Assembly (NCBI GenBank): GCA_963668625.2
Contig: CAXXKA010000006.1
Coordinates: 512,001 to 576,000, forward strand
Reading direction: 5' to 3'
Origin: an uncultured candidate division Zixibacteria bacterium
GTDB lineage: Bacteria; Zixibacteria; MSB-5A5; UBA10806; 4484-95
DNA length: 64,000 bases
Position numbers and translations under genes: made by a program. Below, piece by piece: positions 7,759 to 55,846 of this stretch (the first letter of the stretch is position 1; every line of letters begins with the position of its first letter). Below the pieces are notes generated by a model. The model ran no database searches and had not been told where the DNA came from. It worked only from the letters and a program-made list of their open reading frames with translations.

Positions 7759-7823
7759 CACCTGACACCGGTCTAGTTGCTTGTTGAATTGTTTAAGAAG
7801 AAATTATGGAGGATTACCTTAAG

Positions 7824-9668: not shown

Positions 9669-9694
9669 ACGAGATGATTGGAGGATTTGAGGAT

Positions 9695-10759: not shown

Positions 10760-10789
10760 TTAACCGCTGAAAGATGATGGAGGAAAGAA

Positions 10790-12538: not shown

Positions 12539-12566
12539 CCATTAACCGGATGAAAGGAGTAAAGAA

Positions 12567-15637: not shown

Positions 15638-15638
15638 A

Positions 15639-21846: not shown

Positions 21847-21848
21847 TA

Positions 21849-34459: not shown

Positions 34460-35132
34460 TTATTTAATTTGTATGGAAGGATATTATAACAGAATTTTTA
34501 GAATACAGTTGGCCACAAAATCGGAGTTTGGGAGCCAGAGATAAAAACCTCACTGAGCAGGGTGGAATCCTTTCCTGCCTGCGGTTTTCGTGCAGTATGT
34601 CGCCGGTGGTAGTTTATTTGCATTGAGCCATAAACTCTATTTCATCAATAAAGTACAATTATCGTTTTTACGCTATATCTCTATCAATTTAACATGAAAT
34701 ATATTGATCCGAAAAAAGCATGGAATAATTATCTGACTCGGTTGTACCAATCAGTGCAGAAAATGCGGATACATTTTTGACCTGTTAGGTAGTTAACAGC
34801 ATGGGGAGTCTAGCTATAATAGTTTTCATTTGATCTTGAGGTGTGTTTGCCGAGGAAAGCTTCGCCTATGCTTAAAACGGATAGAAAAATAAACACTTTC
34901 TACGGAATAGTTTCCCATAAAGCCCCGGGGGCCTGGTCGGTATCGGCCGGTCTAACCCAAGCCGGCCCAATATCTTTTCGATATAACCATTATAACACTA
35001 TTGGCTTTAGCGCAGAGCCATGCTCCGGTCGTGCCCCCTTTTTTGCTTTGAAATATTCATCGATTATTTATGTTTCGGCAGCACCGAAATCGAAGCAAAA
35101 CCGCGATAATTTATAATTGAATGGAGCTAGGT

Positions 35133-37445
35133 ATGAAACATACTATAATGATTTTATTGATTATAATATCACCCGTATTGTCATTTTCACAGATAACTTT
35201 CACTCGACATATACTTGAGGATAATTTCCCCCAGACCATGTCCGTCGGCTCATACGATATCGATGGCGATGGTGATGAGGATGTATTAGGATGCAGCTAC
35301 GGGTTGAATTCGTGTTGCTGGTGGGAAAATCAGGGCAGTGGTAATTTCGCGAAACATACTATCGCGATGATCTCAACTCCGCGAGTTATTTGTGCGGATG
35401 ATTTCGACGGGGACGGCTATGGCGATATCGTTGCGACATCATACGGAAACAGCAGCATATATCTATGGCTGAATGATGGAGATAACAATTTTACCGAATA
35501 TATAGTATCGAACGATTTCGCACTCGCTCACACGGTTTGTATCGAGGACCTCGATCGTGACGGCGATAAGGATATATTGGCCTCATCGTATTGCTCGATA
35601 GGAATATCATGGTTTGAAAATAACGGCGAGTACCAATTCGAGGAACACATTGTTTCTCAAGGCGGCGATAATTACCCCTGCGTATATGCCGCCGATATCG
35701 ACGGCGATAATGATACCGATATTCTCGGAACATTATTCGGCAACGGCCGGATCAGCTGGTGGTGCAATGACGGCGACAATAATTATTCCGAACGAATCAT
35801 AACTGTCGATTTCCCCGGCGCGCATTGGACACATGCCAACGATCTCGACGGTGACGGTGATATGGATGTCCTAGGAGCATCGTACACGAACTCGAAAATA
35901 AGCTGGTGGGAAAACGATGGCGAAGAATATTTTACCGAGCATGTTCTTGGAGACATGTTCTACGGAGCTACCTCCGTGTGGTCGGATGATTTCGATGGTG
36001 ATGGCGATATGGACGTGTTCGGGGCGGCCGAGGAAGCCGATGAAGTAAGGTGGTGGACGAATCTCGGTAATGGAGGTTTCGAGGAGCATATCATTTGTGG
36101 TGATTTCGACGGCGCCAGTCATGTTCATGTGGCTGATATCGATAACGACGGCGATAAGGATGTCATGTGTGCCGGAAGATTCGAGGGGAGTATAGCCTGG
36201 TGGGCTAACGATACCTTCCAGTTCGCTATCGATGCCTCGCCTCTTACCGGAAATTTCCCCCTGGATGTGCAATTTTCGGAAATGTGCAATGCAGATTGGC
36301 CGATCACCCAATGGGCCTGGGATTTCCAAGGTGACGGCAGCGTGGACTCCTACGATCAACACCCCTCGTTTACCTATAATACTCATGGTGATTACTCGGT
36401 TTACCTCACTGTTGGCGACGGCTTTCATAACCGCGAGATTCTTTACCATGAGTATATACATGTATTCGATGGATTCAGCGCTTTGGAGTTCGATGGCATG
36501 GAAAGCTACGCCGGCTGCGATGGCTCCGGGGAAAACAACATGACCGGCGAATTGACTTTGGAGGCATGGATCAAACCATATGGCTGGGGTGAAAATAGTT
36601 CGAACGGGTTGGGTAAAATAATCGAAAAAGAAAAATTCTCTCTTTACCTGATAACGGAAAACCTTTCACTTAATGATAATAGCCTGGTTTTCCAGATCAA
36701 AGATTCTACCGGTCGAACCTCCGTAATAAATACCGAAGCTTACTCGATCAACTTAAACCGGTGGCAGCATATCGCGGCTATTTATTCGGCTAATGGCGAT
36801 GTCAGCATATTTATCGATGATAACGAGCAGGAACTGGATTATATGAACCATCCAACGGGAGGTATAGAGGATAACTCCGGGTTCGATTTACTAATTGGAA
36901 ACTCCTACAATCGAGCGAGATCATTCGAGGGGGTAATAGACGAGGTCAGGATATGGGATATCGCTCGAAGCCGGGAAGATATTCAAGCGGCGATGAATTG
37001 CCGTCTTTCGGGAAGTGAGACGGGACTTAGAGTATACTGGCCACTCGATGAGGGAAACGGTGAGCTTATCGCGGATGAGTCCGGTGGCGGAAATGACGGT
37101 GAAATTTACCTGGCCAATTGGCTGCAGGGAATAAACCTGAATCCAACCGGTGTTAGTGAGACGATAGAGAATGTTTTACCGGATGATATCAGCGCATTAT
37201 ATGCTTACCCCAATCCGTTCAACGCCGCCACTATTATTAAATTCAATCTTAAAAAATCAATGCCTGTTAACCTGGATATTTATGATATTCAGGGCAGAAA
37301 AATATATGATGTTTTTGTTGACGAAACACGGCCGGGTGAAAATCAAATTTCCTGGAACGCCGAAAAGTTAGCGTCAGGAATCTATCTGTATCGTTTAACC
37401 GCCGGTGAATTAAGTCAGTCGAAAAAGTTGGTGTTAATCAAGTAG
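35133..37445 (+). CDS. Secreted FG-GAP/VCBS repeat protein with PKD, LamG and T9SS-type CTD
   Basis: Signal; seven DxDGDGDxD..WWEN repeats; WAWDFQGDG PKD; LTLEAWIKP..GVIDEVRIW LamG; YPNPFN..SGIYLYRL..KKLVLIK. Confidence 0.88.
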   Translation: MKHTIMILLIIISPVLSFSQITFTRHILEDNFPQTMSVGSYDIDGDGDEDVLGCSYGLNSCCWWENQGSGNFAKHTIAMISTPRVICADDFDGDGYGDIVATSYGNSSIYLWLNDGDNNFTEYIVSNDFALAHTVCIEDLDRDGDKDILASSYCSIGISWFENNGEYQFEEHIVSQGGDNYPCVYAADIDGDNDTDILGTLFGNGRISWWCNDGDNNYSERIITVDFPGAHWTHANDLDGDGDMDVLGASYTNSKISWWENDGEEYFTEHVLGDMFYGATSVWSDDFDGDGDMDVFGAAEEADEVRWWTNLGNGGFEEHIICGDFDGASHVHVADIDNDGDKDVMCAGRFEGSIAWWANDTFQFAIDASPLTGNFPLDVQFSEMCNADWPITQWAWDFQGDGSVDSYDQHPSFTYNTHGDYSVYLTVGDGFHNREILYHEYIHVFDGFSALEFDGMESYAGCDGSGENNMTGELTLEAWIKPYGWGENSSNGLGKIIEKEKFSLYLITENLSLNDNSLVFQIKDSTGRTSVINTEAYSINLNRWQHIAAIYSANGDVSIFIDDNEQELDYMNHPTGGIEDNSGFDLLIGNSYNRARSFEGVIDEVRIWDIARSREDIQAAMNCRLSGSETGLRVYWPLDEGNGELIADESGGGNDGEIYLANWLQGINLNPTGVSETIENVLPDDISALYAYPNPFNAATIIKFNLKKSMPVNLDIYDIQGRKIYDVFVDETRPGENQISWNAEKLASGIYLYRLTAGELSQSKKLVLIK

Positions 37446-37456
37446 AGAGGTGAAAC

Positions 37457-38545
37457 ATGAAAATTCTTAAGGCGATAATCTCACTGGCGATAATTATCGT
37501 TACGACCGCTGTTTGTACGGCTCAATATTCCGGGCCTGAAAGCGTAGTCTTCGACTATGCTAACGACCGTTATTTCGTTGCGAATTGCTCGAGTGGAAAA
37601 ATCCAGGTACTGGACATGAACTATAACCCGATAGATTCGATTACGGGGCAGGGCGCCTGCCTGGGCATGTGTATCGTTGATAATGTCCTGTATGTCTCAT
37701 GCAGTTCCAACGTGCGCGGTTTCGACCTCGATACTTTCGAGCGGGTGATGAATGTCTCCTGCATGTTGGCGGGTCATTTCGACGGCCAGACCTCGGCCGG
37801 GGATGGTTACCTTTACGTGATCGATACCGGAGGCTGGCTAATAAGGATCGATCTGGATGAGGGCGAGGCCGAACGCTATATGCCTCTGAATATGTCCGGA
37901 TATCCGCAGGATTGTGTTTATGATTTCATCAACAATAGAATCGTGGTCGTTACCTGGGGCCCCAGTTCCGAAATAAAAGCGGTCGATTTAGCCGACTCGT
38001 CCATAAGCACTATTTTACCGGTCAGTGTCGGCTACTGGGATGGTATCACTATTGATGATGAAGGCTCGTTCTATCTCGCATCGCATACTAATCTCGGATG
38101 CATATTCAAATATGATAACTTATTCGCCAATGAGCCTGAACTTATCTCGAGGGGGCATGACGAACCGGCGGGATTGGGGATTAATAACCGGGATGATATT
38201 TTAGCTGTTCCTAATTTCGGAGGTAACTCCGTGGATTTTATCCCGTTGGCCACCTCAATCGATGATAAGGATGTATTGCCGGATGATATATATTTAGCTT
38301 TCAACTACCCTAATCCGTTTAACGGTTCTACGACAATCAGGTATGGTCTTAAAACCGATAGCCACGTGACAATCGAGTTGTATGATATACTCGGCCGTAA
38401 GCTCCGGGAACTCTATGAGGGACGCCGTAGCGCGGGTGAATATTTACTAACCTGGAATGCCGATGGATATGCTACGGGTGTATATTATTGCAATATTCGT
38501 TTCGATGACACGAATCACTATTTGCGTATGACTTATATTAAGTAA
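37457..38545 (+). CDS. Secreted beta-propeller (SMP-30/NHL-like) protein with T9SS-type CTD
   Basis: Signal; GPESVV, WDGITID, EPAGLG blades; NYPNPFN..TGVYY..MTYIK. Confidence 0.8.
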   Translation: MKILKAIISLAIIIVTTAVCTAQYSGPESVVFDYANDRYFVANCSSGKIQVLDMNYNPIDSITGQGACLGMCIVDNVLYVSCSSNVRGFDLDTFERVMNVSCMLAGHFDGQTSAGDGYLYVIDTGGWLIRIDLDEGEAERYMPLNMSGYPQDCVYDFINNRIVVVTWGPSSEIKAVDLADSSISTILPVSVGYWDGITIDDEGSFYLASHTNLGCIFKYDNLFANEPELISRGHDEPAGLGINNRDDILAVPNFGGNSVDFIPLATSIDDKDVLPDDIYLAFNYPNPFNGSTTIRYGLKTDSHVTIELYDILGRKLRELYEGRRSAGEYLLTWNADGYATGVYYCNIRFDDTNHYLRMTYIK

Positions 38546-46023: not shown

Positions 46024-46084
46024 AGACTATCTAAGATTAAGAGAGTTAGTAGGTTACAAAAATAGATGAATGGAAGGATTTAAA

Positions 46085-47152
46085 ATGAATAGAGTGAAAG
46101 GGTTAGCGGTAGCTGCCGGATTGTTTTGTCTAGTATTGACCAGTGGAGCAGTAGCCAGTGACAGAATGGTGTTGGTTGAGATGTACACTAACACATCATG
46201 CACGTATTGCCCGCCTGCTGAAACTGCTTTAGATGGTATAGCCGATAATTATCCCGACACTGTAGTTGCGATCAGGTATCATACCTGGTGGCCTGGTGCT
46301 AGTGATCCTTATTACACTTATAACACCTCGGAGAATAGAACCAGGACAAACTATTATGGAGTTGCCCAACAGGGTGTTCCGGCTGTCAGGGTTGATGGTT
46401 TCATAGATGCCAATTATTCGGCACTCTGGAATATCGTATCAAACCGTTATCACATGGAAGCACCGATAGAACTTAACCTTAGCGGTACTTATAATCAAAC
46501 ATCCAATACCGGAACTCTAAACGTAGAGATAGTGGCTACTGATTTAGCATATTTCGAGGAATTATATCTTCGCTGTGCCATAACCGAATCGGATCTGTAC
46601 TATTCAGCTCCTAATGGCGTTACTTGGCATCATCAGACTATGAGGGATATGGTTCCCAACGCAACGGGTACCTCGGTTGAGATCGAATATGGGGAGACAG
46701 TGAACGTATCGTTACCGTTTTCTGCGCCGGCGCCGCTTAATGTGGATAATCTCGAACTGGTTGTTTGGCTTCAGACAGATTTTTTCCAGACCCTTGAGGT
46801 ATATCAAGCCGCACGTATTAAGCCATCCGAACTTGTTAGAGTAAGCGTGGATGATGAACCGGTATCATTGCCTGAGTCATTCACTTTAAGTCAGAATTAT
46901 CCCAATCCGTTCAACGCAACAACCAATATCTCGTACTCTCTAGAAAACCAGACCTCTGTCGATCTGGCAGTCTATGATCTTTCCGGACGCAAGGTCGCTC
47001 AGTTAGTTAATAGCGTACAAGGCGCTGGTGAGCATAGAGTTGTTTGGAATGCTCTGGATAATGATGGCGATGCTGTTGCCACTGGTATCTATTTTTACAG
47101 ACTAAAAACTGATACTGAAAATACTACAAAGAGAATGGTATTATTGAAATAA
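46085..47152 (+). CDS. Omp28-related thioredoxin-fold protein (CTYC) with T9SS/FlgD CTD, paralog 1
   Basis: Signal; RMVLVEMYTNTSCTYCPPA, YHTWWP, GVP, HHQTMRDM; SQNYPNPFN..GIYFYRL..KRMVLLK. Confidence 0.85.
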   Translation: MNRVKGLAVAAGLFCLVLTSGAVASDRMVLVEMYTNTSCTYCPPAETALDGIADNYPDTVVAIRYHTWWPGASDPYYTYNTSENRTRTNYYGVAQQGVPAVRVDGFIDANYSALWNIVSNRYHMEAPIELNLSGTYNQTSNTGTLNVEIVATDLAYFEELYLRCAITESDLYYSAPNGVTWHHQTMRDMVPNATGTSVEIEYGETVNVSLPFSAPAPLNVDNLELVVWLQTDFFQTLEVYQAARIKPSELVRVSVDDEPVSLPESFTLSQNYPNPFNATTNISYSLENQTSVDLAVYDLSGRKVAQLVNSVQGAGEHRVVWNALDNDGDAVATGIYFYRLKTDTENTTKRMVLLK

Positions 47153-47174
47153 GAGTTTTTTTAAAAAAGAATAT

Positions 47175-47201
47175 AAGCGGGTTTATCAGCCCGCTTTTTT
47201 T
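47175..47201 (+). terminator. Intrinsic terminator
   Basis: AAGCGGG-TTTATCAG-CCCGCTT followed by a T tract. Confidence 0.75.
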
Positions 47202-47216
47202 ATATGAATATGTTCG

Positions 47217-47244
47217 TTGACAACATTGTAATAAATGGTATATT
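47217..47244 (+). promoter_or_regulatory. sigma70-like promoter of Omp28-like paralogs 2 and 3
   Basis: TTGACA-N16-TATATT. Confidence 0.55.
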
Positions 47245-47302
47245 TAGGAAAATAAGGGACTGCCTTAAATTAGATATTGATATAGAGGAAAGGATGTTCA
47301 AG

Positions 47303-48355
47303 ATGAGGATAAAGGTTATTTTTATATTTCTAGCATTATTGTTTATTTCCGGGGCAGCCAATGCCACACAACGCCTGGTATTATGCGAAAAATATACTAA
47401 TACCTCATGTGGCCCATGTTATAACGCCAACCAGACCATGGATCAACTTATCGCCGCTTATCCCGATCATATGGCGGTGATTCGGTATCATGTTGATTGG
47501 CCCTCGGACTTGGATCCTTTCTATCTGTACAATCCGAGCGAAAATGGTATTCGAACGAATTATTACGGCATAGGCTCCGTGCCTCACCTGCAGGTGGGAG
47601 GTATTCATGATGCCGGTTCGCATACTCAGTACTGGAGCGTGATTTCGAATCGCTATACCGTGCCCTCGGCACTGGAGATAGTAATCGATGGTACTTTCAA
47701 TGAATCATCCCGAACCGGTAATCTCAGTGTCACGGCCACGGCTACGGATGCTATTTCACTCGAGGGCTTGTTCCTGAGGGTAGTCCTTACCGAATCTGGT
47801 ATCCCGTTCAATGCGCCTAATGGTATCAATTATCACCATCAGACAATGCGTTATATGTTCCCGTATTCGCTTGGAACGAGAGTGTATTTAACTAATCCCG
47901 GTGATGTTGCGGAAGTGGAGCTTGATATCTGGGCGCCTGAGCCGTTGAATTTGGAAAATTGTGAGCTGGTGGCTTTCGTGCAGTCGGAGTCGAATCGAGA
48001 GGTACTGCAGGCAGCGAAATTACCCCTGATGGGCCTGACTTTAGTAGATATCGAGGATGAGCAGGTCGAGTTGCCAACTGATTTCCGTTTAGAGCAGAAT
48101 TACCCAAACCCGTTTAATGCCGGTACGGTAATCAGCTATCGGTTGTCATCGGATAGCCCCGTTGAGCTTACCATTTATGATATTTTAGGCAAGAAAATCA
48201 TGACTTTAATCGATGAAAATCAGGCTGCAGGCCATTATAGTGTTAACTGGAATGGCTTAGATAGTGATGGTAAATCAGTGGCCAGCGGTGTATACTTATA
48301 CAGGTTGAAATCCGAGGGGAGAAGCCAGAGCAAACGGATGATGCTGGTGAAATAA
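47303..48355 (+). CDS. Omp28-related thioredoxin-fold protein (CGPC) with T9SS/FlgD CTD, paralog 2
   Basis: Signal; RLVLCEKYTNTSCGPCYNA, YHVDWP, SVP, HHQTMR; QNYPNPFN..KRMMLVK. Start is 47294 or 47303. Confidence 0.85.
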   Translation: MRIKVIFIFLALLFISGAANATQRLVLCEKYTNTSCGPCYNANQTMDQLIAAYPDHMAVIRYHVDWPSDLDPFYLYNPSENGIRTNYYGIGSVPHLQVGGIHDAGSHTQYWSVISNRYTVPSALEIVIDGTFNESSRTGNLSVTATATDAISLEGLFLRVVLTESGIPFNAPNGINYHHQTMRYMFPYSLGTRVYLTNPGDVAEVELDIWAPEPLNLENCELVAFVQSESNREVLQAAKLPLMGLTLVDIEDEQVELPTDFRLEQNYPNPFNAGTVISYRLSSDSPVELTIYDILGKKIMTLIDENQAAGHYSVNWNGLDSDGKSVASGVYLYRLKSEGRSQSKRMMLVK

Positions 48356-48380
48356 TAATAGCAAAAGCTTTGGAGGTTTT

Positions 48381-49445
48381 ATGAAACATGGCTTTCGAGT
48401 ATCAATAGTATCATTGGCAATGATACTTGCCTTAAGCTTCTCTGCCGATGCCGCACGGCGGCTGGTTATTTTTGAAAATCAAACATCCACAGGCTGAGGT
48501 GGTTGTCACGGCGCTGATCTGGTCTTAGATCAGCTTTATGATGCAAATTCCAATTTATTCGTGCCAATCACGTATCATAGTGGTGATATATTCTGGCAGT
48601 ACAATCAAGATGACAATACCAACAGAATATACTATTACCCACCTCATGGCGATGGCAGTTACTATACTCCTTATGCCTGGATTGATGGATGTGTACGTGG
48701 TGGTTACACTTACAGTAGCTGGTGGGCGCTAACCAACCCACGGGTGGAGTTGGGGGCGCCCCTGGATATAACGCTCGAGGGGACTTACGATATTGATGCG
48801 AAAACCGGTAATCTTCATATAAGCATTTACGCCGAGGAAGCTATCACGCTTCAGAGCTTGAAACTCAGGGTAGCCCTGACCGAGGATAGCATCTATTATT
48901 CAGCCCCTAATGGTACTATGTATCACAACTACACTTTAAGGGATATGATCCCGAACGCCGCCGGCGAGGCAATCTCGATCAGCCAGGGGCAGACTCTCGA
49001 GTTCGATAAAGCTTTTGCGCTCGGTAATACGCCGGTACCGCATTTCTGCAGACTCGTGGTTTGGGTTCAAACCGATTCCGAAAACCTGGAGATTTTACAG
49101 GGAGCGGCTATCGATATCGAGGAGTTGGATGACGGTACGGGTATCGATGACAAAGTCGAGCTTCCCCGGAAATTCAGTTTAGCTCAGAACTATCCCAATC
49201 CATTTAATGCCGGTACACTCATAGGCTACGATCTTAAAGTAGATAGCCATGTCGAACTGTGCATTTACGATATCCTGGGCAAGAAAATAGCCACCCTGGT
49301 TAATAACGAACAATTCGCCGGGGAGAAGCAGATAACCTGGAACGGATTCGATGATGAAGGTCGGTCTGTCGCCAGCGGTGTTTATTTCTACAAGCTCTCC
49401 GCTGACGGTATTTCGGAAACCAGGCAAATGATGCTGGTGAAATAA
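48381..49445 (+). CDS. Omp28-related thioredoxin-fold selenoprotein (UGGC, Sec at codon 39) with T9SS/FlgD CTD, paralog 3
   Basis: GGAGG RBS + ATG 48381; signal peptide; RRLVIFENQTSTG-TGA-GGCHGAD in frame with ORF 48561..49445. The TGA at 48495 aligns with the first Cys of the paralog CxxC; SECIS-like hairpin follows. Confidence 0.85.
48498..48534 (+). promoter_or_regulatory. Candidate bacterial SECIS element
   Basis: Perfect 8-bp stem GCTGATCT (48513-48520) / AGATCAGC (48527-48534) with loop GGTCTT starting with G, 23 nt after the UGA. Confidence 0.75.
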
Positions 49446-49469
49446 CAATTTAATGATATGGATAATGCG

Positions 49470-49497
49470 AGCGAGTCGGAAACGGCTCGCTTTTTTT
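49470..49497 (+). terminator. Intrinsic terminator
   Basis: AGCGAGTCG-GAAA-CGGCTCGCT followed by a T tract. Confidence 0.8.
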
Positions 49498-49586
49498 GTA
49501 GGCGGCACATGTCCCCGTGTGTCCCTTAGCAGAAAATGTGAGGTGGTAAATGCACCAGACGAAGAAGTATGCCAGCCACGGAATAG

Positions 49587-49619
49587 AAAGCCATCGGGCC
49601 TGCGGTCGGTGAAAGTTTA
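49587..49619 (+). repeat. Isolated copy of the IS200/IS605-like right-end motif
   Basis: AAAGCCATCGGGCCTGCGGTCGGTGAAAGTTTA resembles 34426-34458 and 62853-62884. Confidence 0.45.
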
Positions 49620-50789
49620 TTCTACGATAATACGGGGAAGGTAATGGGGCAAGCGAGCAAGTACTTCGTAGTTCTGGAATCTGGATAAATCGGAAAACGA
49701 ACCCACCGTTATTTCCGACTTGCATTGTTTGCCGATGATAACCACTTCATCGCCTTTTTGTATATGCTTAATGCGGGAGACATCAACCAAAACGATATGC
49801 ATGTTCACCATACCGACAACAGGCGCTCTTTTGCCGCGTATCAAGACATAACCGACATTCGAAAGACTCCGCGCGAAACCGTAGTGATAACCAACCGGTA
49901 TCGAGGCAATTCTTTGTTTCATCGAGGTGAGATATGAGGTACCGTAGCCGATGAACTCGCCGGGATTGATCTCCTTGATACTCAGGATTTTCGTTTTCCA
50001 GGACAACACACGCTTTAAAGGATCTATAAATCGTTTGGTACCGTTACTCTGATGTTTTATTATGTACTGCATACGTGTCTCGTGGCTGGGCCAGAATCCG
50101 AATTGCGCTATGCCGATCCTGACCATATCGAAACGTGTTTCTGGGTACGAGAGAGCTGCGGCCGAACAAGCGGCGTGTTTCATGCCCAGGTCGAGCCCTT
50201 GCTGCTCGAGCCATTTGCATTCGCGCTTGAACTCCTCTATCTGGTTGCTTATACGAAGGTAATTGCTGACACTTTCCGCCCCGGCGAAATGCGTGCAAAC
50301 ACCCTCTAGTTTAACGTAATGCTTATTTTGTTTGATTAATCGGGCAGTCTCAATCAATTCCTCACCCTGAAGACCGGTTCTATTCAAGCCGGTTTCAAGT
50401 TCCATGTGTACCCGGGCAGGGATATCTAATTTTTTAGCGGCATCGATAGCGGCAATTAACCTGTCGGTATCGAAGATGTAAAACGAGATATCGTTCTCTA
50501 TCGCCCAGCCCAGCTCATCGTTGTCGATTGATCCCATAATACAGATGTGGCTGTTCCCGGTTCTGCTGTTTAAGGCGGTGTAACCCTCGTAGGCGCTGAA
50601 AACGGAGAAGTGATCGATACCACATTCCTCCGCCATCGGTACGAACTGCTCGATACCGTGGCCGTAGGCGTTACCCTTAATTACCGAGGAGAATTTTATA
50701 TCCTCACCGATATGTTTCCTGATAAACTTGATGTTTTTATTGAACGCGGATTTGCTTAGTTCTATGTGAGAGGAGTGAAACATATCCAA
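49617..50789 (-). CDS. alr: Alanine racemase family protein (second copy)
   Basis: SVIKGNAYGHG, ETGLNRTG, THFAG, VRIGI, IGYG. Atypical GMVNMH in place of GRVCMD. Confidence 0.85.
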   Translation of the reverse strand: MDMFHSSHIELSKSAFNKNIKFIRKHIGEDIKFSSVIKGNAYGHGIEQFVPMAEECGIDHFSVFSAYEGYTALNSRTGNSHICIMGSIDNDELGWAIENDISFYIFDTDRLIAAIDAAKKLDIPARVHMELETGLNRTGLQGEELIETARLIKQNKHYVKLEGVCTHFAGAESVSNYLRISNQIEEFKRECKWLEQQGLDLGMKHAACSAAALSYPETRFDMVRIGIAQFGFWPSHETRMQYIIKHQSNGTKRFIDPLKRVLSWKTKILSIKEINPGEFIGYGTSYLTSMKQRIASIPVGYHYGFARSLSNVGYVLIRGKRAPVVGMVNMHIVLVDVSRIKHIQKGDEVVIIGKQCKSEITVGSFSDLSRFQNYEVLARLPHYLPRIIVE

Positions 50790-50870
50790 TAGTCCTGACA
50801 GTTTTTAATCTGGTATTATCGTATTGCTAATATGATTGTCGGACATATGCTATTGTGTTTTACAAATTTA

Positions 50871-52718
50871 TTATATTTCATTAGATGAGACTAATTTCTT
50901 ATATAATAACAGGGTAAAAAACACTATACATGAGGCCAGTACGCCCACTACCGATGTGTCCATTTGATTCATGAATTCGTAAACGTTTTCGCTGAATATG
51001 GCGATACCGTATTTACTGTGTAGAAACAGGATGAAACGGTACGACATGCTTATCCCGATAGCAAAAAGCATAGTAATGAATATATTGGTGGTAAGCTCTT
51101 TAGCCCGGGTTTTGTATAGCGCTCCGACAATTACGGGAAGTATAACCGCCGGCGCCCAGAGGTGATACGTAAAAAGCAGTAAACCGATGATATCAGACCA
51201 GAGTATTGCTATGAGAATCGCCGCTATTCCCAGCAAAGCTGAGCATATTCGGGCGATCAGCAGTTTCTTTTGGTCTGGCATGTCGTGCAATCCAAGTTGA
51301 TGTTCGAACAGGTCTTTGACGAAAATAGCCGTAGAGGAGTTTAATGCCGAATCAGCAGAGGACATTACGGCCATCAGGAGCGCGCCGATAATCAGTCCGC
51401 CGATAATAGGATTGTTCAATTGATGAACAACCATCGGTAAAGCCTGTTGCGGATCGATATCCGGGAAGTGAATACGAGCATATAATGCTATAAAAAACAG
51501 GATCACCGGGAATGTTATCGCCAGGAAGAAACCTACTCCGGCGATACCTATTTTAGTATGACGGGCATCCTTGCCGATACAGTACCGGGTAGCATAGCCC
51601 GGCGCGAATGTTTCACCTAGAAGGAATGCCAAAAAGGTTGTGATCAAAAACAGCCAGCCTTTACCTCCCTCCAATCGGAAGAAATCTGCAGGAAGCGTTC
51701 TGTTTTTAGTGATATCGTTCCGATAGGTATCCTGAATTAAAGATAGGTTCAACCGCCTCAACTTCCACTCACCGTTTATATCATCACTTAGGTATTCTCT
51801 GGTTTGCGGGCTTAAAGTTACCTGCGAGAAGCGAGCGGTATTATACAGGTTCTTATCCTCGATTAGCGAGTTTAGTTTATCTTTCAGGAAAGCCTGTGTA
51901 TGCTTTATTGTCGTTGAATCGTGTTGAGTAGCCTTTAATGTTGCCATATCTTCATCAGTCATTCCGGCGCGTATGTAAGCAGACAACGAGTCATCGGAGG
52001 CTAATACCTTGTTCGCAAGATCGGGTGGATTGATAAAGTCAATGGAACCGAAACGGGTAGGTACGAATTCGTGCGTTTCGGAATTATAGGAATTCGAGAT
52101 ATCGGGAATGCAGAAACCGAGGGTGATAACAAATCCCAGAAGAAGCACGATGAATTGATACACATCGGTTTGGATTACAGCTAACAAGCCACCGGCCGTG
52201 CTATAGATTACGACCATAGCTCCACCGATTAAAATAGCCCATTTCAGGATTGATACCGAACTGGAGTACTGCGGCGCGATCGAGGCCAATACAGTGCCGA
52301 ATGCCGCCATCTGGGCGGCTACGATGAACACGGAAAACAGTAATGAAAGTATAAGCATCACGAACCGGGGCTTCTCGCCGAATCTGTATCCGAAAAAGCC
52401 GGCTACCGTGTAAAGCTCGGCCTCGCGGAATTGCGGAGCGACTACAAGTCCGGAGAAAATGAAATGGAAATAGCCGCCGGTGGATACAAGCAGCATCAGG
52501 ATGCCCCACTCATAAGTTTTGCCGATTGCCCCGATAGAATAGCCGCCGCCAATTACGGTAGCGCCCATCGTAGCAAACAGGAAAAACCATTTAACGTTAC
52601 GCCCGGCAACCAGGAAGTCATCAGAGGTACCGATTTTTTTAACTTTGAGCACACCCTTGATAAAAACAAAAGCCATATAGGCGATGACAATAGCCCAGAG
52701 CAATAATCGGTCTGACAT
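50871..52718 (-). CDS. Sodium:solute symporter (SSS/PutP family) with inserted soluble domain
   Basis: DFLVAGR, YSTAGGLLAVIQTD..Q, AVMSSADS; about 130-aa hydrophilic insertion mid-protein. Confidence 0.88.
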   Translation of the reverse strand: MSDRLLLWAIVIAYMAFVFIKGVLKVKKIGTSDDFLVAGRNVKWFFLFATMGATVIGGGYSIGAIGKTYEWGILMLLVSTGGYFHFIFSGLVVAPQFREAELYTVAGFFGYRFGEKPRFVMLILSLLFSVFIVAAQMAAFGTVLASIAPQYSSSVSILKWAILIGGAMVVIYSTAGGLLAVIQTDVYQFIVLLLGFVITLGFCIPDISNSYNSETHEFVPTRFGSIDFINPPDLANKVLASDDSLSAYIRAGMTDEDMATLKATQHDSTTIKHTQAFLKDKLNSLIEDKNLYNTARFSQVTLSPQTREYLSDDINGEWKLRRLNLSLIQDTYRNDITKNRTLPADFFRLEGGKGWLFLITTFLAFLLGETFAPGYATRYCIGKDARHTKIGIAGVGFFLAITFPVILFFIALYARIHFPDIDPQQALPMVVHQLNNPIIGGLIIGALLMAVMSSADSALNSSTAIFVKDLFEHQLGLHDMPDQKKLLIARICSALLGIAAILIAILWSDIIGLLLFTYHLWAPAVILPVIVGALYKTRAKELTTNIFITMLFAIGISMSYRFILFLHSKYGIAIFSENVYEFMNQMDTSVVGVLASCIVFFTLLLYKKLVSSNEI

Positions 52719-52809
52719 GTTTATACCTCCTCGGATTTGGTTGGCTGGGAAATAAAAACGCGAATAAATGATTTATCTGGTATCAAAAAAAAACATAAAG
52801 AACATTCTA

Positions 52810-53967
52810 TCAGTTAATATCCTCAAATTGATCCATAGCCGGTTGTACCTCGAATAACTCAGGATCGAGTTCATCTCGGAAAATATCAAGGGCTGGATAT
52901 ACCTGCTTATTGACATATCTGCCGTTCATCAGCCGTAGAAGCGCGGAGTAATTTACCTTGAATTGAATCGTATCACCAACACTAAGATCGCCTTTGTCCT
53001 CACCGATATTGATCACCGCAATATCACTCGAGGCTCCCGCTATTCTGTATTCGGGATTGACCGGCGTTAAGCCGTTGATATCGGTATCAAGTTGGCCGAT
53101 GCTTACAAGCGCCCTGTAACCTCGTTGGCCCGGCTGAGTTTCCTCATCGGAGTCGGAGTCGAACGGCGCTACACCGGAGCTTGTCTCTCCCAGCGGCACG
53201 AGCCCTTTCTCCTTGATCTCGGCAATCTCTGCCTCCAGGAGCATAACCTCGTTGCTGAGATAGGGGAGAGTACCGCCATTGATCAGATCGGTGCCTAAAA
53301 AAACAGCTTCGCCTATACGGAAATGGTTGATTGCGGGTGGAAGCTTATTATCAAGTACCAATGGTAGAACGACTGTCGAACCGGCGGAGGTCAACGGTAA
53401 TATCTGCTTGAATTTCAGCTCAAGCAACTCTTTGTATAGTACAAGCTGCATGAATTGATCGACACTGGGGACAGTACCTGCCAGACAACCGAGATTGGAG
53501 CCGATTCCCAACACCTCAATGTTAGGCAGCTCGAAAACCTTCTGGTAGAATTTCACCAGTGAGCCGGGAAGAATCCCCTCGCGCAAATCGCCAAGCTCTA
53601 TCATTATAATGATACGGTGAGTTTTATTTTGACGTTGTGCCTCTCGGCCAAGTTCCTTGATTATCTCGATCTCGCTATTTAAGCTGACATCGGAATAATT
53701 TATCACATCGGGGATGGAGGATATATCCGGTACGCGCATATACCAGGCCTCGAAATCGGGTATGATTCTGTCGATAGCTTTCAAATTTTCCAGACGGGAA
53801 TCGCCCATCGAACGTACTCCCAGGTATTGCAGAGCTTTGATTGTATCCACATGACCACACAGCACCTTCGTTACCAGTGTCCAGGTGGCATTGTGACGGT
53901 CCATCCATTTATTGATGACAGCTATGTTATATTTTAACGCCTCCAGGTTTATAATAAGCCTGTTCAT
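52810..53967 (-). CDS. Alanine/ornithine racemase-family PLP enzyme (Orr/YhfX-like)
   Basis: LVTKVLCG (PLP Lys), GDSRLENL, SLNSE, ELGDLREG, NHFRIGE, GASSD. Confidence 0.85.
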   Translation of the reverse strand: MNRLIINLEALKYNIAVINKWMDRHNATWTLVTKVLCGHVDTIKALQYLGVRSMGDSRLENLKAIDRIIPDFEAWYMRVPDISSIPDVINYSDVSLNSEIEIIKELGREAQRQNKTHRIIIMIELGDLREGILPGSLVKFYQKVFELPNIEVLGIGSNLGCLAGTVPSVDQFMQLVLYKELLELKFKQILPLTSAGSTVVLPLVLDNKLPPAINHFRIGEAVFLGTDLINGGTLPYLSNEVMLLEAEIAEIKEKGLVPLGETSSGVAPFDSDSDEETQPGQRGYRALVSIGQLDTDINGLTPVNPEYRIAGASSDIAVINIGEDKGDLSVGDTIQFKVNYSALLRLMNGRYVNKQVYPALDIFRDELDPELFEVQPAMDQFEDIN

Positions 53968-54416
53968 TTCAGATACCTCATCTCGGCATATTTCGTAGTA
54001 AAGCCGATTTTTTCGTAAATTTGCTTGGCCGGATTATCATATTCGACATGAAGTTTCACGTCGCCATCGGCCAACTCGATACCTTTTCTGATTAGCTTAC
54101 CGCCGACACCACTGCCGCGGGCATCAGGAGCAACACAGACCATTAGCAGGAGATTTTCCGGGATGTAGCCTTTCATTTGCGTTCGAAGCATGATAAGCGC
54201 GCCTAAGGGGTTTTGATCCTTTTCGGCTAAAAGCACGAAAGCGCCTTTGGCTTCATCGGGGGCAATCGCTTTCAAGACGGCTCTTTTCGTGTCCTCCAGG
54301 GTGTCCTCGTAGGGCTTGATATTCTCGTATATGAATACCGAAAGGCTATCAACGCTTACCCAGGAGGGGAAATCTTTAACATCTCTTAAAACATGTATTT
54401 TAATTTCAGATGACAT
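53964..54416 (-). CDS. GNAT family N-acetyltransferase
   Basis: GYIPEN.L, V.PDARGSGVG (acetyl-CoA binding), LHVEYDNPA..YEKIGF..KYAEMR. Confidence 0.9.
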   Translation of the reverse strand: MSSEIKIHVLRDVKDFPSWVSVDSLSVFIYENIKPYEDTLEDTKRAVLKAIAPDEAKGAFVLLAEKDQNPLGALIMLRTQMKGYIPENLLLMVCVAPDARGSGVGGKLIRKGIELADGDVKLHVEYDNPAKQIYEKIGFTTKYAEMRYLK

Positions 54417-54457
54417 TTTACTACCTTTTAGTTTGCTGATTCGTGTTGTACTTGTTT

Positions 54458-54964
54458 TTACTGACCGTTGTGGTCGATTTGACGACCATTTCCGGAAATT
54501 GGCCCACTATCTAGCAGGGGCGCTACATCCAGATGCTCGGCATCCATGATTTTGGCAACGGTTTCCAGCGCATTCATGATATTCTTCTGCTCCGTTAAGT
54601 TTAAGCTCTCAAAGGCTTTCACGAACTCCTCCTGAAGGGGAGAGGGAGCGTTTTTTAGAAGCTCCTTACCGGCTGAGGTGGATTTCACGAGCACCTGGCG
54701 ACGATCGTTCGAGCCTCTGATTCGCTCGGCCAATTGCTGTTTCTCCAGCCTATCCACTATGCCGGTAACCGTGGCGCTGCTTAAGCTTACACTTTTTGCC
54801 AGTGAACCGATTGGTATCTCGTCCCGGGCCGCTATCTCTTTCAACAGGATTAGCTGGGGAACCGTAAGTTTGTGTCGTTTATGTAGCTTCTTCGAGTTGA
54901 GGTCGACCGCCCTCATGATTTTTCTCAAAGCGATTAAAACATTCGAACTAATTTCACTATCCAT
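54458..54964 (-). CDS. MarR family regulator, EctR-like
   Basis: LIALRKIMRAVDLNSKKL..LTVPQL..SLSSATVTGIVDRLE..DRRQV..APSPLQE.F..M.AE.LD.APLL, characteristic of the EctR subgroup. Confidence 0.88.
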   Translation of the reverse strand: MDSEISSNVLIALRKIMRAVDLNSKKLHKRHKLTVPQLILLKEIAARDEIPIGSLAKSVSLSSATVTGIVDRLEKQQLAERIRGSNDRRQVLVKSTSAGKELLKNAPSPLQEEFVKAFESLNLTEQKNIMNALETVAKIMDAEHLDVAPLLDSGPISGNGRQIDHNGQ

Positions 54965-54980
54965 TATCTTTCACCCTGAT

Positions 54981-55024
54981 TAATTTGTGTACTAATATTT
55001 AGTGTACAAAATAAATTATGTCAA
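54981..55024 (-). promoter_or_regulatory. Promoter with two overlapping EctR-type operator pseudopalindromes
   Basis: TAATTTGT-GT-ACTAATAT (54981-54998) and TATTTAGT-GT-ACAAAATA (54996-55013); TTGACA on the minus strand at 55024-55019. Confidence 0.7.
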
Positions 55025-55096
55025 GGGATAAAATATTATATTTTTATTTAAATCAATGTGTTAGGTGTCCAGAAAAGGGGATGGGGGGAGGAGTGG

Positions 55097-55132
55097 TTGT
55101 GGTTGACGGGCGTCCCGGCCTGCCAACAGGTT
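55097..55132 (+). repeat. REP-like repeat, left of the low-GC island
   Basis: 26/36 ungapped identity with 58260-58295; both end CTGCCAACAGGTT. Confidence 0.5.
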
Positions 55133-55312
55133 GATGCAGTTACAATCGAATTCCAAATAAACATTGACAATTAGATTTATTACAGTACTTTACAACTGAA
55201 TATCTGAATATTTATTTTTTGACATTATAATATTGGGGGAATGATATCGTGAAAGGGCATCTATTATTTAATCCGAATACAGAAACATTCTTATTCCTGA
55301 TAATAATGAATC

Positions 55313-55324
55313 GGGGGGGGGGGG
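55313..55324 (+). repeat. Poly-G (G12) homopolymer tract
   Basis: 12 consecutive G in an AT-rich upstream region. Confidence 0.9.
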
Positions 55325-55414
55325 CAGAAGTCCACCTTTCTTTCAAATAAACATCAGTTTGGTTTAATCGTTTTTAGTTGTTAATTAAGATGTTTAATTT
55401 GAAAGGAAAACGTA

Positions 55415-55846
55415 ATGAATCGTTTTTGCATATTAGCAGTATTATGCTGCCTGGTATTTATTTTGGGGGCTGGGTTTTGTAATGAAGCATCCGCGCAGTG
55501 TAAGCATCAAGAAAGTATTGATGTTTTTTGTACGTGGACAAGTACTTACACTTCATGTGATAAATATGTAAGAAACGCTCTGGAAACAACAATAGTAAAT
55601 GGCGGCTATCGTACTATAAAACCAACGCTTAGTGTAAACAACTATACCTATGAACACATACTTTATGGAGCAGACTTACCCTATGGGGATACAACTATAG
55701 TCTGGGATTTAGCGGCCCCTGTAGATACGACAGTCAATCATAAAATAATGATGGATATAATTTCAGGAAGCGGTAGCTTTTCCAGAGGTTTTTGCGATAC
55801 AAGTACTGTGTACACTGTTTATTACTTAGCAAATCAGGCGAATTAG
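55415..55846 (+). CDS. Small secreted Cys-containing protein, unknown function (low GC)
   Basis: AAAGGAAA RBS; signal peptide ending ASA; 143 aa. Confidence 0.7.
   Translation: MNRFCILAVLCCLVFILGAGFCNEASAQCKHQESIDVFCTWTSTYTSCDKYVRNALETTIVNGGYRTIKPTLSVNNYTYEHILYGADLPYGDTTIVWDLAAPVDTTVNHKIMMDIISGSGSFSRGFCDTSTVYTVYYLANQAN

What the first reader, a model, noticed from the sequence alone, without database searches (positions are those of the whole stretch)
49617..55024. EctR-type regulator and operators drive an operon with no ectoine genes: possible novel osmolyte or D-amino-acid pathway
Seen: a minus-strand unit of MarR, GNAT, Orr/YhfX-like racemase, Na+:solute symporter and Alr, with GNAT and racemase overlapping (ATGA). 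The MarR has EctR-subgroup motifs. Upstream are two overlapping pseudopalindromes, one reading TATTTAGT-GT-ACAAAATA. From memory (to verify), the Methylomicrobium alcaliphilum EctR1 operator is TATTTAGT-GT-ACTATATA, a 16/18 match. EctR normally represses osmo-induced ectABC, which is absent from this window. Inference: salt-responsive synthesis or uptake of an N-acetylated, possibly D-configured, amino acid compatible solute.
Basis: partly seen in the sequence, partly recalled or inferred. Interest (0 to 1): 0.78.

Follow-up and report, generated by a model that had tools for sequence, protein, structure and literature searches.

The report
EctR-like regulator, uncharted amino-acid operon
A repressor of the family that controls salt-protective solutes in other bacteria sits in front of a conserved, uncharacterised gene set (an acetyltransferase, two amino-acid racemases and a sodium-driven transporter), so it may encode an undescribed way of making or handling a protective N-acetyl amino acid.

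Summary
On the minus strand lie MarR (54458-54964), GNAT (53964-54416), an ornithine-racemase-like PLP enzyme (52810-53967, ATGA overlap), a Na+:solute symporter (50871-52718) and an alanine racemase (49617-50789). The MarR belongs to the CosR/EctR family. Of its 77 labelled relatives from other genomes, 54 lie within 6 kb of ectABC, proV/opuA, BCCT, NAGGN, ablAB, trehalose or sucrose genes. It is 44-51% identical to bcct-linked Vibrio regulators and ectABC-linked regulators.

The two upstream pseudo-palindromes match a family consensus, TTTAGT-NN-ACTAAA, that I derived from those loci, with the same 15-bp two-site spacing. They overlap a conserved TTGACA-17-TAAATA promoter. The published EctR1 operator could not be checked.

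The operon recurs in five other genomes from at least three phyla. The enzyme core recurs, with an added M20D amidohydrolase and no MarR, in a cultured Persicobacter. The operon's Alr is a dedicated paralog; a second Alr lies in a cell-wall cluster at 16856-18019.

Best reading (0.45): an osmoregulated pathway that racemises a basic amino acid and N-acetylates it into a neutral solute, analogous to ablAB. The product and the salt response are inferred, not shown. Main rival: D-/N-acyl-amino-acid scavenging.

The parts
54458..54964 (-). MarR-family repressor of the CosR/EctR family (168 aa), first gene of the operon
   Evidence: PF01047. 44-51% identical to bcct-linked Vibrio regulators and ectABC-linked regulators. 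Forms one clade (SH-aLRT 97) with the MarRs of the five syntenic loci, nested among ect/opuA/BCCT-linked clades. Recognition helix SLSxATVTGIxDRLE and wing D(R/K)R(R/K)V are shared across the family.
53964..54416 (-). Small GNAT N-acetyltransferase (150 aa), stop overlapping the start of the racemase (ATGA)
   Evidence: PF13508/PF00583. R100-G101-x-G103-x-G105 acetyl-CoA loop is conserved in 60 homologs. 833 uncharacterised homologs. No similarity to EctA or AblB. Model pLDDT 88; fold matches are generic.
52810..53967 (-). Ornithine-racemase-like fold-type III PLP enzyme (385 aa)
   Evidence: racem_Orr 296 bits, full-length but under the 480 cut-off. K34, R129, N158, C161 and R217 are invariant and align with K36, R129, N161, C164 and R220 of Salmonella OrnR (residues from PMC13397332). 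30-34% identical to OrnR/Orr.
50871..52718 (-). Sodium:solute symporter (615 aa) with a hydrophilic insert of about 140 aa (residues about 232-375)
   Evidence: PF00474 in two stretches. Under every NCBIfam equivalog cut-off. The insert is conserved in L001, L005, L008 and L034 and absent from the Persicobacter SSS.
49617..50789 (-). Operon-specific alanine racemase paralog (390 aa)
   Evidence: TIGR00492 270 bits, above 168. 27% identical to the window's other Alr at 16856-18019. 70% identical to the L001 Alr and 46% to the Persicobacter module Alr.
54996..55013 (.). Operator site A: pseudo-palindrome TATTTAGT-GT-ACAAAATA (plus strand), 1 mismatch to the family core TTTAGTNNACTAAA
54981..54998 (.). 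Operator site B: weaker pseudo-palindrome (3 mismatches to the core), centre 15 bp from site A
   Evidence: The same 15-bp offset occurs in L001 and L043 and in 5 of 9 ectR loci checked.
55019..55024 (-). -35 box TTGACA (within the conserved CCCTTGAC)
   Evidence: TTGAC lies 56-60 nt upstream of the MarR start in 5 of 6 syntenic loci.
54996..55001 (-). -10 box TAAATA, 17 nt after the -35 box, inside operator site A
   Evidence: Read. The consensus scan did not list it, because that scan requires a T at position 6.

Best explanation
This is an autoregulated five-gene operon under a CosR/EctR-family repressor. I propose that it makes, and recaptures, an N-acetylated basic amino acid that serves as a compatible solute.

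Proposed steps:
1. At low ionic strength the MarR dimer occupies two overlapping pseudo-palindromes that cover the -10 box and the spacer of a sigma-70-type promoter, and shuts off the operon. This is inferred from family behaviour.
2. When derepressed, the ornithine-racemase-like enzyme converts an L-diamino acid (ornithine, lysine or similar) to the D-form.
3. The translationally coupled GNAT acetylates one amino group. This removes a charge and pulls the racemase equilibrium, yielding a neutral, metabolically inert zwitterion.
4. The symporter imports precursor or recaptures leaked solute.
5. The dedicated Alr paralog supplies or balances D-Ala.
6. In related loci an M20D amidohydrolase recycles or proofreads the N-acetyl compound.

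Shown: gene families, catalytic residues, conservation of the module, regulator family, operator and promoter conservation.

Inferred: salt response, substrates, stereochemistry of the product, and the role of each accessory gene.
For: Regulator.
- The search for related loci found 558 relatives and kept 79 loci.
- By cluster labels, 54 of the 77 loci that could be labelled have recognised compatible-solute genes within 6 kb: ect 13, proV/opuA-type ABC 18, BCCT 12, NAGGN-type 4, trehalose-P synthase/phosphatase 3, sucrose synthase 2, ablB 2.
- A representative of each class scored above NCBIfam cut-offs.
- The Vibrio loci show the bcct-divergent layout that defines cosR (preprint 10.1101/845297, passages).

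Tree. The six GNAT-racemase-linked MarRs form one clade, SH-aLRT 97, inside this family.

Operator.
- The consensus TTTAGTNNACTAAA is enriched: 6 of 78 regions against 0.15 expected at 1 mismatch or fewer.
- A perfect copy lies in an ectR-ectA spacer (L050).
- Paired sites 15 bp apart occur in the window, L001, L043 and 5 of 9 ect loci checked.
- The operator overlaps the -10 box, as a review reports for EctR1 (PMC5924519, passages).

Synteny.
- MarR-GNAT-racemase-SSS recurs in L001, L005, L008 and L034; L043 has MarR-GNAT-racemase-M20D-Alr with no SSS. Identities to the window proteins are 47-80%, and GNAT and racemase overlap in all of these loci.
- 35 contig lengths are shared between the two top-120 homolog lists. 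This is a proxy for linkage.
- Persicobacter carries SSS-GNAT-M20D-Alr-racemase.

Chemistry.
- The racemase has the OrnR catalytic set.
- The M20D's best named relative is the N-acetyl-diaminobutyrate deacetylase DoeB2.
- L005 adds an argD-like aminotransferase, and L005 and L008 have a KefC-like K+ efflux gene next door.

Precedents. MarR-ablA-ablB in L036 is an isomerase plus a GNAT on lysine. A single GNAT makes the solute N-alpha-acetyl-lysine (PMC9049628, abstract).
Against: - There are no expression, binding or metabolite data.
- A GNAT and an N-acyl-amino-acid amidohydrolase in one module (L043, L005, L081) could form a futile cycle, unless they differ in stereospecificity.
- The Persicobacter module has no MarR hit at E <= 1e-3 in the 15-kb locus held (about 7 kb on each side of the racemase) and uses a PutP-like SSS, which looks like nutrient uptake.
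- The GNAT has no detectable similarity to EctA or AblB, and its fold matches are generic.
- The racemase is under the Orr equivalog cut-off and only 30-34% identical to enzymes of known specificity.
- L034 lacks a recognisable operator.
- 15 of 77 labelled MarR relatives have no recognised solute gene nearby.
- The role of Alr is unexplained.
- No held paper pairs an N-acetyl-D-ornithine/lysine or D-amino-acid N-acetyltransferase term with 'osmolyte' or with each other, so there is no chemical precedent for a D-form solute.
Confidence: 0.45

Rival explanations
1. A scavenging module for D-amino acids or N-acyl amino acids. The symporter imports amino acids released from cell-wall debris. The two racemases convert D-Ala and D-Orn/D-Lys to L-forms. 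The M20D enzyme, where present, frees N-acetyl amino acids. The GNAT detoxifies D-amino acids that cannot be used. The MarR is then a local, ligand-responsive repressor that merely descends from the CosR/EctR family.
For: - The Persicobacter module has a PutP-like SSS and an M20D hydrolase, and no MarR hit in the 15-kb locus held.
- M20D-Alr pairs occur in L005 and L043.
- Other Orr-like racemases sit with amino-acid permeases or D-amino-acid dehydrogenase.
- Acetylation-dependent D-to-L routes exist. The DgcN-DgcA pathway is mentioned in PMC10845958 (passages); its enzymology is recalled, not read.
Against: - PLP racemases act on free amino acids, so acetylation and deacetylation are not needed for D-to-L conversion.
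- The GNAT is the gene most tightly coupled to the racemase (4-nt overlap in 6 of 6 loci), which is odd for a side-reaction detoxifier.
- The regulator's relatives are overwhelmingly linked to solute genes, and the operator type is retained.
Confidence: 0.25
2. An osmoprotectant-uptake operon. The regulated function is the symporter, an OpuE/PutP-like import of proline, alanine or a similar solute. The enzymes only trim or interconvert what is imported, and no new solute is made.
For: - CosR-family regulators often control transporters: BCCT in 12 loci and proV/opuA-type in 18 loci.
- The SSS family includes proline importers, and the C-terminal half of the window SSS matches PutP weakly (62 bits).
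Against: - L043 keeps MarR-GNAT-racemase-M20D-Alr without the SSS.
- The Persicobacter SSS is not an ortholog: 29% identity over 121 aa.
- The GNAT-racemase pair is therefore the invariant core, not the transporter.
Confidence: 0.12
3. Cell-envelope remodelling. The racemases supply D-Ala and D-Orn/D-Lys for peptidoglycan or another envelope polymer under stress.
For: Two racemases lie in one operon. D-amino acids are used in cell walls (general knowledge).
Against: - A separate Alr already sits in the peptidoglycan cluster at 14189-23636.
- No ligase or Mur-type gene occurs in any of the six syntenic loci or in L081.
- The GNAT, SSS and M20D have no role in this scheme.
Confidence: 0.08
4. 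The regulator-operon link is incidental. The palindromes are AT-rich chance matches, and the MarR regulates only itself or distant genes.
For: - The region is AT-rich.
- The window-wide count of the motif at 2 mismatches or fewer is not significant: 5 found against 2.73 expected.
- L034 lacks the motif.
Against: - Gene order, the -35 box, the operator and the two-site spacing are conserved across phyla.
- The gap to the GNAT is 41 nt with no terminator.
- In L034, MarR and GNAT are read as one 345-aa ORF.
Confidence: 0.03

Closest known systems
EctR1 (Methylomicrobium alcaliphilum) and CosR (Vibrio): MarR-type repressors of compatible-solute genes
   Same: - Same protein family: 44-51% identity to bcct-linked Vibrio regulators and ectABC-linked regulators, about as close as CosR is to EctR1 (~50%, preprint 10.1101/845297).
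- Shared recognition helix and wing.
- Operator pseudo-palindrome of the type found in ectR-ectA spacers, laid over the -10 box (PMC5924519).
   Different: - The regulated genes are not ect, bet or BCCT genes, but a GNAT, two racemases and an SSS.
- The regulator is co-directional and co-transcribed with its targets rather than divergent.
- The hosts are uncultured Ignavibacteriota, Zixibacteria and Acidobacteriota-type bacteria, not Proteobacteria.
- DNA binding and salt response are untested.
ablA-ablB (lysine 2,3-aminomutase plus beta-lysine N-acetyltransferase), which make N-epsilon-acetyl-beta-lysine
   Same: The logic is the same: isomerise a basic amino acid to a non-proteinogenic form, then acetylate it with a GNAT to give a neutral solute. 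In L036 ablA-ablB follow directly a MarR of this same family.
   Different: The isomerase here is a PLP racemase, not a radical-SAM aminomutase. The GNAT is half the size of AblB and unrelated to it in sequence. The product is unknown.
ShKAT, the lysine N-alpha-acetyltransferase of Salinicoccus halodurans
   Same: A small GNAT that acts on free basic amino acids and makes a compatible solute (PMC9049628, abstract).
   Different: No racemase partner is described in the abstract I read.
Ornithine racemases: Salmonella OrnR (with D-Orn/D-Lys decarboxylase) and clostridial Orr (ornithine fermentation)
   Same: Fold-type III PLP enzyme with Lys, Arg, Asn-x-x-Cys and Arg in the same positions. Full-length match to the racem_Orr model.
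   Different: - 30-34% identity, under the equivalog cut-off.
- An added C-terminal tail of about 30 aa.
- Different partners: a GNAT, not a decarboxylase or aminomutase.
EctA and DoeB2 of ectoine metabolism
   Same: An acetyltransferase acting on a diamino acid, plus an M20D N-acetyl-diamino-acid deacetylase. DoeB2 is the best named relative of the M20D in L005, L043 and L081.
   Different: The GNAT is not EctA. The M20D scores 181-205 bits against a 550 cut-off, and it is absent from the window itself.

Membership tests
CosR/EctR family of MarR regulators | MarR-type winged helix-turn-helix protein of about 150-180 aa | tested here: met
   PF01047 50.8 bits, residues 33-91; 168 aa.
CosR/EctR family of MarR regulators | Clusters by sequence with regulators adjacent to ectABC or divergent from bcct | tested here: met
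   44-51% identity to such loci. In the tree its clade is nested among ect, opuA and BCCT clades. No non-family MarR outgroup was included, so the root is not fixed.
CosR/EctR family of MarR regulators | Encoded next to, or controlling, ectoine, betaine or BCCT genes | tested here: not met
   None of these among 44 window ORFs. The neighbours are the GNAT, racemase, SSS and Alr.
CosR/EctR family of MarR regulators | Pseudo-palindromic operator overlapping the -10 box of the target promoter | tested here: met
   In silico only: sites at 54981-55013 over TAAATA. The published EctR1 sequence could not be read.
CosR/EctR family of MarR regulators | Binds that DNA and represses at low salinity | not testable with these tools
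   Needs EMSA or footprinting and expression assays.
Ornithine racemase (Orr/OrnR) | Catalytic Lys, two Arg, and Asn-x-x-Cys in place of the Alr His and Tyr | tested here: met
   K34, R129, N158, C161 and R217 are invariant in alignment with the Salmonella and Ilyobacter enzymes and in 60 homologs, where N158 is at least 90% conserved.
Ornithine racemase (Orr/OrnR) | Score above the NCBIfam racem_Orr cut-off | tested here: not met
   296 bits against 480.
Ornithine racemase (Orr/OrnR) | Racemises ornithine | not testable with these tools
   Needs an enzyme assay.
Alanine racemase | Both Alr domains and a score above the TIGR00492 cut-off | tested here: met
   PF01168 and PF00842; 270 bits against 168. 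The KGNAYGHG and GYG motifs are visible.
GNAT acetyltransferases | GNAT fold with an R/Q-x-x-G-x-G/A acetyl-CoA loop | tested here: met
   Pfam hits. R100, G101 and G105 are invariant and G103 is at least 90% conserved. Model pLDDT 88 with GNAT fold matches.
EctA / AblB solute acetyltransferases | Sequence membership in TIGR02406 or TIGR03827 | tested here: not met
   Neither model was hit at E <= 0.01. blastp against EctA of L057 and AblB of L036 and L020 found nothing better than E = 0.57.
Osmoprotectant SSS importers (OpuE/PutP) | Score above the PutP equivalog cut-off | tested here: not met
   62 bits against 515. Only the SSF superfamily is matched.
Compatible-solute biosynthetic operon | Osmotic induction and accumulation of the product | not testable with these tools
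   Needs transcript and metabolite measurements.

The most novel reading that the evidence does not exclude
The operon makes a D-configured N-acetyl diamino acid, for example N-acetyl-D-ornithine or N-acetyl-D-lysine. This would be the first D-amino-acid-derived compatible solute described in bacteria. Chirality would serve the purpose that the beta-shift serves in N-epsilon-acetyl-beta-lysine: it keeps the solute out of general metabolism. An L-specific M20D amidohydrolase in related loci would act as a chiral proofreader. The same CosR/EctR-type repressor family would then be a cross-phylum master switch for at least seven chemically different solute systems.
Probability: 0.2. Interest if true: 0.85.

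Novelty: new variant of a known kind. Interest (0 to 1): 0.62.

Why it matters
Compatible solutes are few in kind, and their pathways are prized in biotechnology and as markers of how microbes cope with salt and drying. Here a regulator family whose studied members (EctR, CosR) act on ectoine genes in methylotrophs and on ectoine, betaine and transporter genes in vibrios is linked to a conserved, unstudied enzyme set in poorly known phyla.

If the product is a new N-acetyl, possibly D-, amino acid, that would add a solute class and give a function to three groups of proteins: hundreds of 'RimI-like' GNATs (833 homologs), the subset of the 'alanine racemase' annotations that belongs to this clade (top hits 63-85% identical, out of 4545 homologs of the wider Orr-like family), and a second Alr paralog. 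It would also show that one repressor-operator pair has been reused across phyla for many solute systems.

The question is directly testable, because a cultured Persicobacter carries the enzyme module.

Tried and rejected
- Complex prediction of the racemase dimer with the GNAT: no verdict (score 0.00, mark 0.32). Not used either way.
- PDB sequence search with the racemase: no hit at E <= 0.001.
- PDB sequence search with the GNAT: only weak generic hits.
- PDB sequence search with the MarR: generic MarR structures. The best entries, 9vg2 and 8za5, are cited in a paper on C. difficile HsmR, seen only as a search listing. This gives no help on EctR.
- Fold search of the GNAT model: about 500 GNAT folds, TM 0.55-0.75, 12-22% identity, nothing substrate-specific.
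- Protein Atlas for the GNAT and the SSS: only generic family names.
- Rfam over 49300-55500 at E <= 1: nothing, so no riboswitch clue to the substrate.
- The consensus promoter scan did not list the promoter I propose, and it found no minus-strand terminator.
- The EctR1 primary paper is not held. Text searches for the motif found no ectoine paper, and a methylotroph review gave no sequence.
- The literature search for ablA/NAGGN links to CosR/EctR was swamped by unrelated words.
- The search pairing N-acetyl-D-Orn/Lys or D-amino-acid N-acetyltransferase terms with 'osmolyte' or each other found 0 papers.
- Considered and dropped: the more distant Orr-like genes on Vibrio, Aliiroseovarius and Roseateles replicons as context guides. 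They pair with DUF1611 or D-amino-acid dehydrogenase and belong to other subfamilies.

Full report
**What is there.**
Five minus-strand ORFs sit at the stated coordinates.
- MarR, 54458-54964.
- GNAT, 53964-54416.
- Ornithine-racemase-like PLP enzyme ('OrrL'), 52810-53967.
- Sodium:solute symporter, 50871-52718.
- Alanine racemase, 49617-50789.

OrrL matches the racem_Orr model end to end but scores 296 bits against a cut-off of 480. Alr passes TIGR00492 (270 against 168). The GNAT and the SSS reach no specific family.

The GNAT stop and the OrrL start overlap (ATGA). The MarR-GNAT gap is 41 nt; the other two gaps are 91 and 81 nt. No minus-strand terminator-like site was found inside the unit. 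No ectoine gene occurs among the 44 window ORFs of 100 aa or more.

**The regulator.**
A profile of 59 homologs found 558 relatives in one-genome-per-species contigs; 79 loci were kept. I called ORFs within 6 kb of each MarR and clustered them. Cluster representatives were annotated by Pfam and by NCBIfam for chosen representatives.

Seventy-seven loci could be labelled. Of these, 54 carry recognised compatible-solute genes:

| Context | Loci |
|---|---|
| ectA/B/C | 13 |
| proV/opuA-type ABC | 18 |
| BCCT | 12 |
| NAGGN-type asparagine-synthase clusters | 4 |
| fused trehalose-P synthase/phosphatase | 3 |
| sucrose synthase | 2 |
| beta-lysine acetyltransferase ablB | 2 |
| the GNAT-OrrL set | 5 |
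| an Opp-type ABC system | 2 |
| an MttB-like gene | 1 |
| nothing recognisable | 15 |

One representative of each solute class scored above its NCBIfam cut-off. These were EctA, EctB, EctC, ProV, BCCT, OtsA/B, sucrose synthase, the NAGGN trio, AblA and AblB.

The Vibrio loci show the MarR divergent from a bcct gene. The CosR preprint gives exactly this layout as the hallmark of cosR in more than 50 Vibrio species. It also states that CosR is about 50% identical to EctR1 (10.1101/845297, passages). The window's MarR is 44-48% identical to those Vibrio proteins and 46-51% identical to ectABC-adjacent ones.

In a quick IQ-TREE of 78 rows, the six GNAT-OrrL-linked MarRs form one clade (SH-aLRT 97). 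That clade sits among the ect-, opuA- and BCCT-linked clades. No outgroup MarR was included. The recognition helix and the wing are shared across the groups.

**The operator and promoter.**
Read in operon orientation, the upstream regions of the six syntenic loci share three elements:
- CCCTTGAC, a -35 box (TTGAC in 5 of 6 loci, 56-60 nt before the MarR start);
- 17 nt further, TAAATA;
- a pseudo-palindrome across that -10 box.

The window's 18-mer has 15 or more matches in 10 of the 77 other upstream regions. None of 1560 shuffles reached 15.

The ectR-ectA spacers gave the core TTTAGT-NN-ACTAAA, with a perfect copy in L050. It occurs at 1 mismatch or fewer in 6 of 78 regions against 0.15 expected. 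At 2 mismatches or fewer it occurs in 14 of 78 against 2.45 expected (100 dinucleotide shuffles).

Their 15-bp offset recurs in L001 and L043 and in 5 of the 9 ect loci examined. L034 has no recognisable site. Across the whole window the motif is not over-represented at 2 mismatches (5 found, 2.73 expected), but the promoter copy is the only one with 1 mismatch.

A review states that EctR1 protects a region overlapping the -10 box of the distal ect promoter (PMC5924519, passages). The published operator sequence itself could not be read. The '16/18' figure therefore stays unverified, though it is consistent with the consensus derived here.

**The operon is a conserved module.**
- L001 (Ignavibacteria) has all five genes, 60-80% identical to the window's.
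- L005 (Zixibacteria), L008 (Ignavibacteria) and L034 (Acidobacteriota) have MarR-GNAT-OrrL-SSS.
- L043 has MarR-GNAT-OrrL-M20D-Alr.

The GNAT/OrrL overlap is kept in all of these loci. In L034, MarR and GNAT read as one 345-aa ORF. That locus is a MAG, so an assembly error cannot be excluded.

OrrL has 4545 homologs at E <= 0.001, and the best 119 are 63-85% identical. The GNAT has 833 homologs. Thirty-five contig lengths are shared between the two top-120 lists, which is a proxy for linkage.

A tblastn against plasmid records found a cultured Persicobacter sp. replicon. It carries SSS-GNAT-M20D-Alr-OrrL on one strand. Identities are 40%, 46% and 42% to the window's GNAT, Alr and OrrL, and 41% to the L043 M20D. 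The SSS is not orthologous, and there is no MarR hit in the 15-kb locus held.

**The enzymes.**
- Aligned with the Salmonella OrnR ortholog (found in its permease/decarboxylase operon) and with Ilyobacter Orr, OrrL keeps K34, R129, N158, C161 and R217. These are the Lys, Arg, Asn, catalytic Cys and Arg of OrnR (PMC13397332, abstract and Results). It is therefore very probably an active racemase of the ornithine type, although specificity at 30-34% identity is open.
- The operon's Alr is a paralog. Another Alr, 27% identical, lies at 16856-18019 among a D-Ala-D-Ala carboxypeptidase, an LD-carboxypeptidase, NlpC/P60, an MR_MLE epimerase and an amidase.
- The M20D enzymes of L005, L043 and L081 pass the general amidohydrolase model. 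Their closest named relative is the N-acetyl-diaminobutyrate deacetylase DoeB2, far under its cut-off.
- L005 adds an argD-like aminotransferase. L005 and L008 have a KefC-like K+ efflux gene just upstream.
- The GNAT is unrelated in sequence to EctA and AblB, and its confident model gives only generic fold matches.

**Reading.**
Three observations point to repression at this promoter by a CosR/EctR-type mechanism: the regulator family, the retained operator type, and the operator's position over the -10 box. Such a mechanism is salt-relieved in the studied cases.

The invariant core is an isomerase of basic amino acids coupled to a GNAT. That is the logic of ablA-ablB, which in L036 directly follows a MarR of this same family. 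A lone GNAT is known to make the solute N-alpha-acetyl-lysine (PMC9049628, abstract).

I therefore favour synthesis of an N-acetylated, possibly D-, diamino acid, with the SSS for uptake or recapture (confidence 0.45). The points against this reading are:
- a hydrolase and an acetyltransferase occur in one module;
- the Persicobacter version has no MarR within the locus held and looks like nutrient uptake;
- the role of Alr is unexplained;
- there are no data on expression or products.

The main rival is a D-/N-acyl-amino-acid scavenging module whose MarR has been co-opted (0.25). An uptake-only role (0.12) and a cell-wall role (0.08) are less likely, for the reasons given under the rival explanations.

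**Novelty.**
Within the held library, no paper pairs N-acetyl-D-ornithine/lysine or D-amino-acid N-acetyltransferase terms with 'osmolyte' or with each other. No named family covers the GNAT. I rate this as a new variant of a known kind: a compatible-solute-type operon under an EctR/CosR-family repressor, with new enzyme content.

Noticed in passing
window 14189-23636 (+): A peptidoglycan-recycling style cluster: S13 D-Ala-D-Ala carboxypeptidase, Orn/DAP-type decarboxylase, a second alanine racemase (16856-18019), NlpC/P60, a C39-like peptidase, LD-carboxypeptidase, an MR_MLE-type epimerase and N-acetylmuramoyl-L-alanine amidase.
   Followed up: partly
window 50871-52718 (-), residues about 232-375 of the SSS: A hydrophilic insert of about 140 aa between the two halves of the symporter. 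It is conserved in L001, L005, L008 and L034, absent from the Persicobacter SSS and from typical 470-520-aa relatives, and has no Pfam match. It could be a regulatory or osmosensing domain.
   Followed up: partly
L034 9974-11011: MarR and GNAT are read as one 345-aa ORF with both domains. This is either a natural regulator-enzyme fusion or a MAG assembly error. This locus also lacks the operator.
   Followed up: partly
L036 10001-12925; L056; L020: MarRs of the same family sit directly before ablA-ablB (N-epsilon-acetyl-beta-lysine genes) in Acidobacteriota and beside ablB in a Cloacimonadota MAG. Others sit before the NAGGN trio, otsAB fusions and sucrose synthase. The family therefore looks like a cross-phylum regulator of many solute systems.
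   Followed up: partly
L081 2046-2840 (Persicobacter): Upstream of the MarR-less module there are two copies of a different palindrome (TGTAAAAATATTTTACA-like). This suggests another regulator in that organism.
   Followed up: no
window 55313-55324: A run of 12 G lies about 90 nt upstream of a small ORF with a hydrophobic N-terminus and no family match (55415-55846). It is a possible slipped-strand phase-variation tract.
   Followed up: no
window 46070-49445 (+): Three tandem paralogs with an Omp28-like domain. The first two also match the type IX secretion C-terminal sorting tail (Por_Secre_tail); the third matches Omp28 and FlgD_ig only. They lie directly downstream of the operon, and more Por_Secre_tail proteins lie at 35121-38545. 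This points to an FCB-group host.
   Followed up: no
L083 4805-7089; L084 4760-7131: More distant Orr-like racemases on Vibrio and Aliiroseovarius replicons are each fused in an operon with a DUF1611 protein. This is a different, also uncharacterised pairing.
   Followed up: no
window 7806-14123 (+): Four consecutive large ORFs (361-620 aa) after a TonB-dependent receptor have no Pfam match at E <= 1e-6.
   Followed up: no
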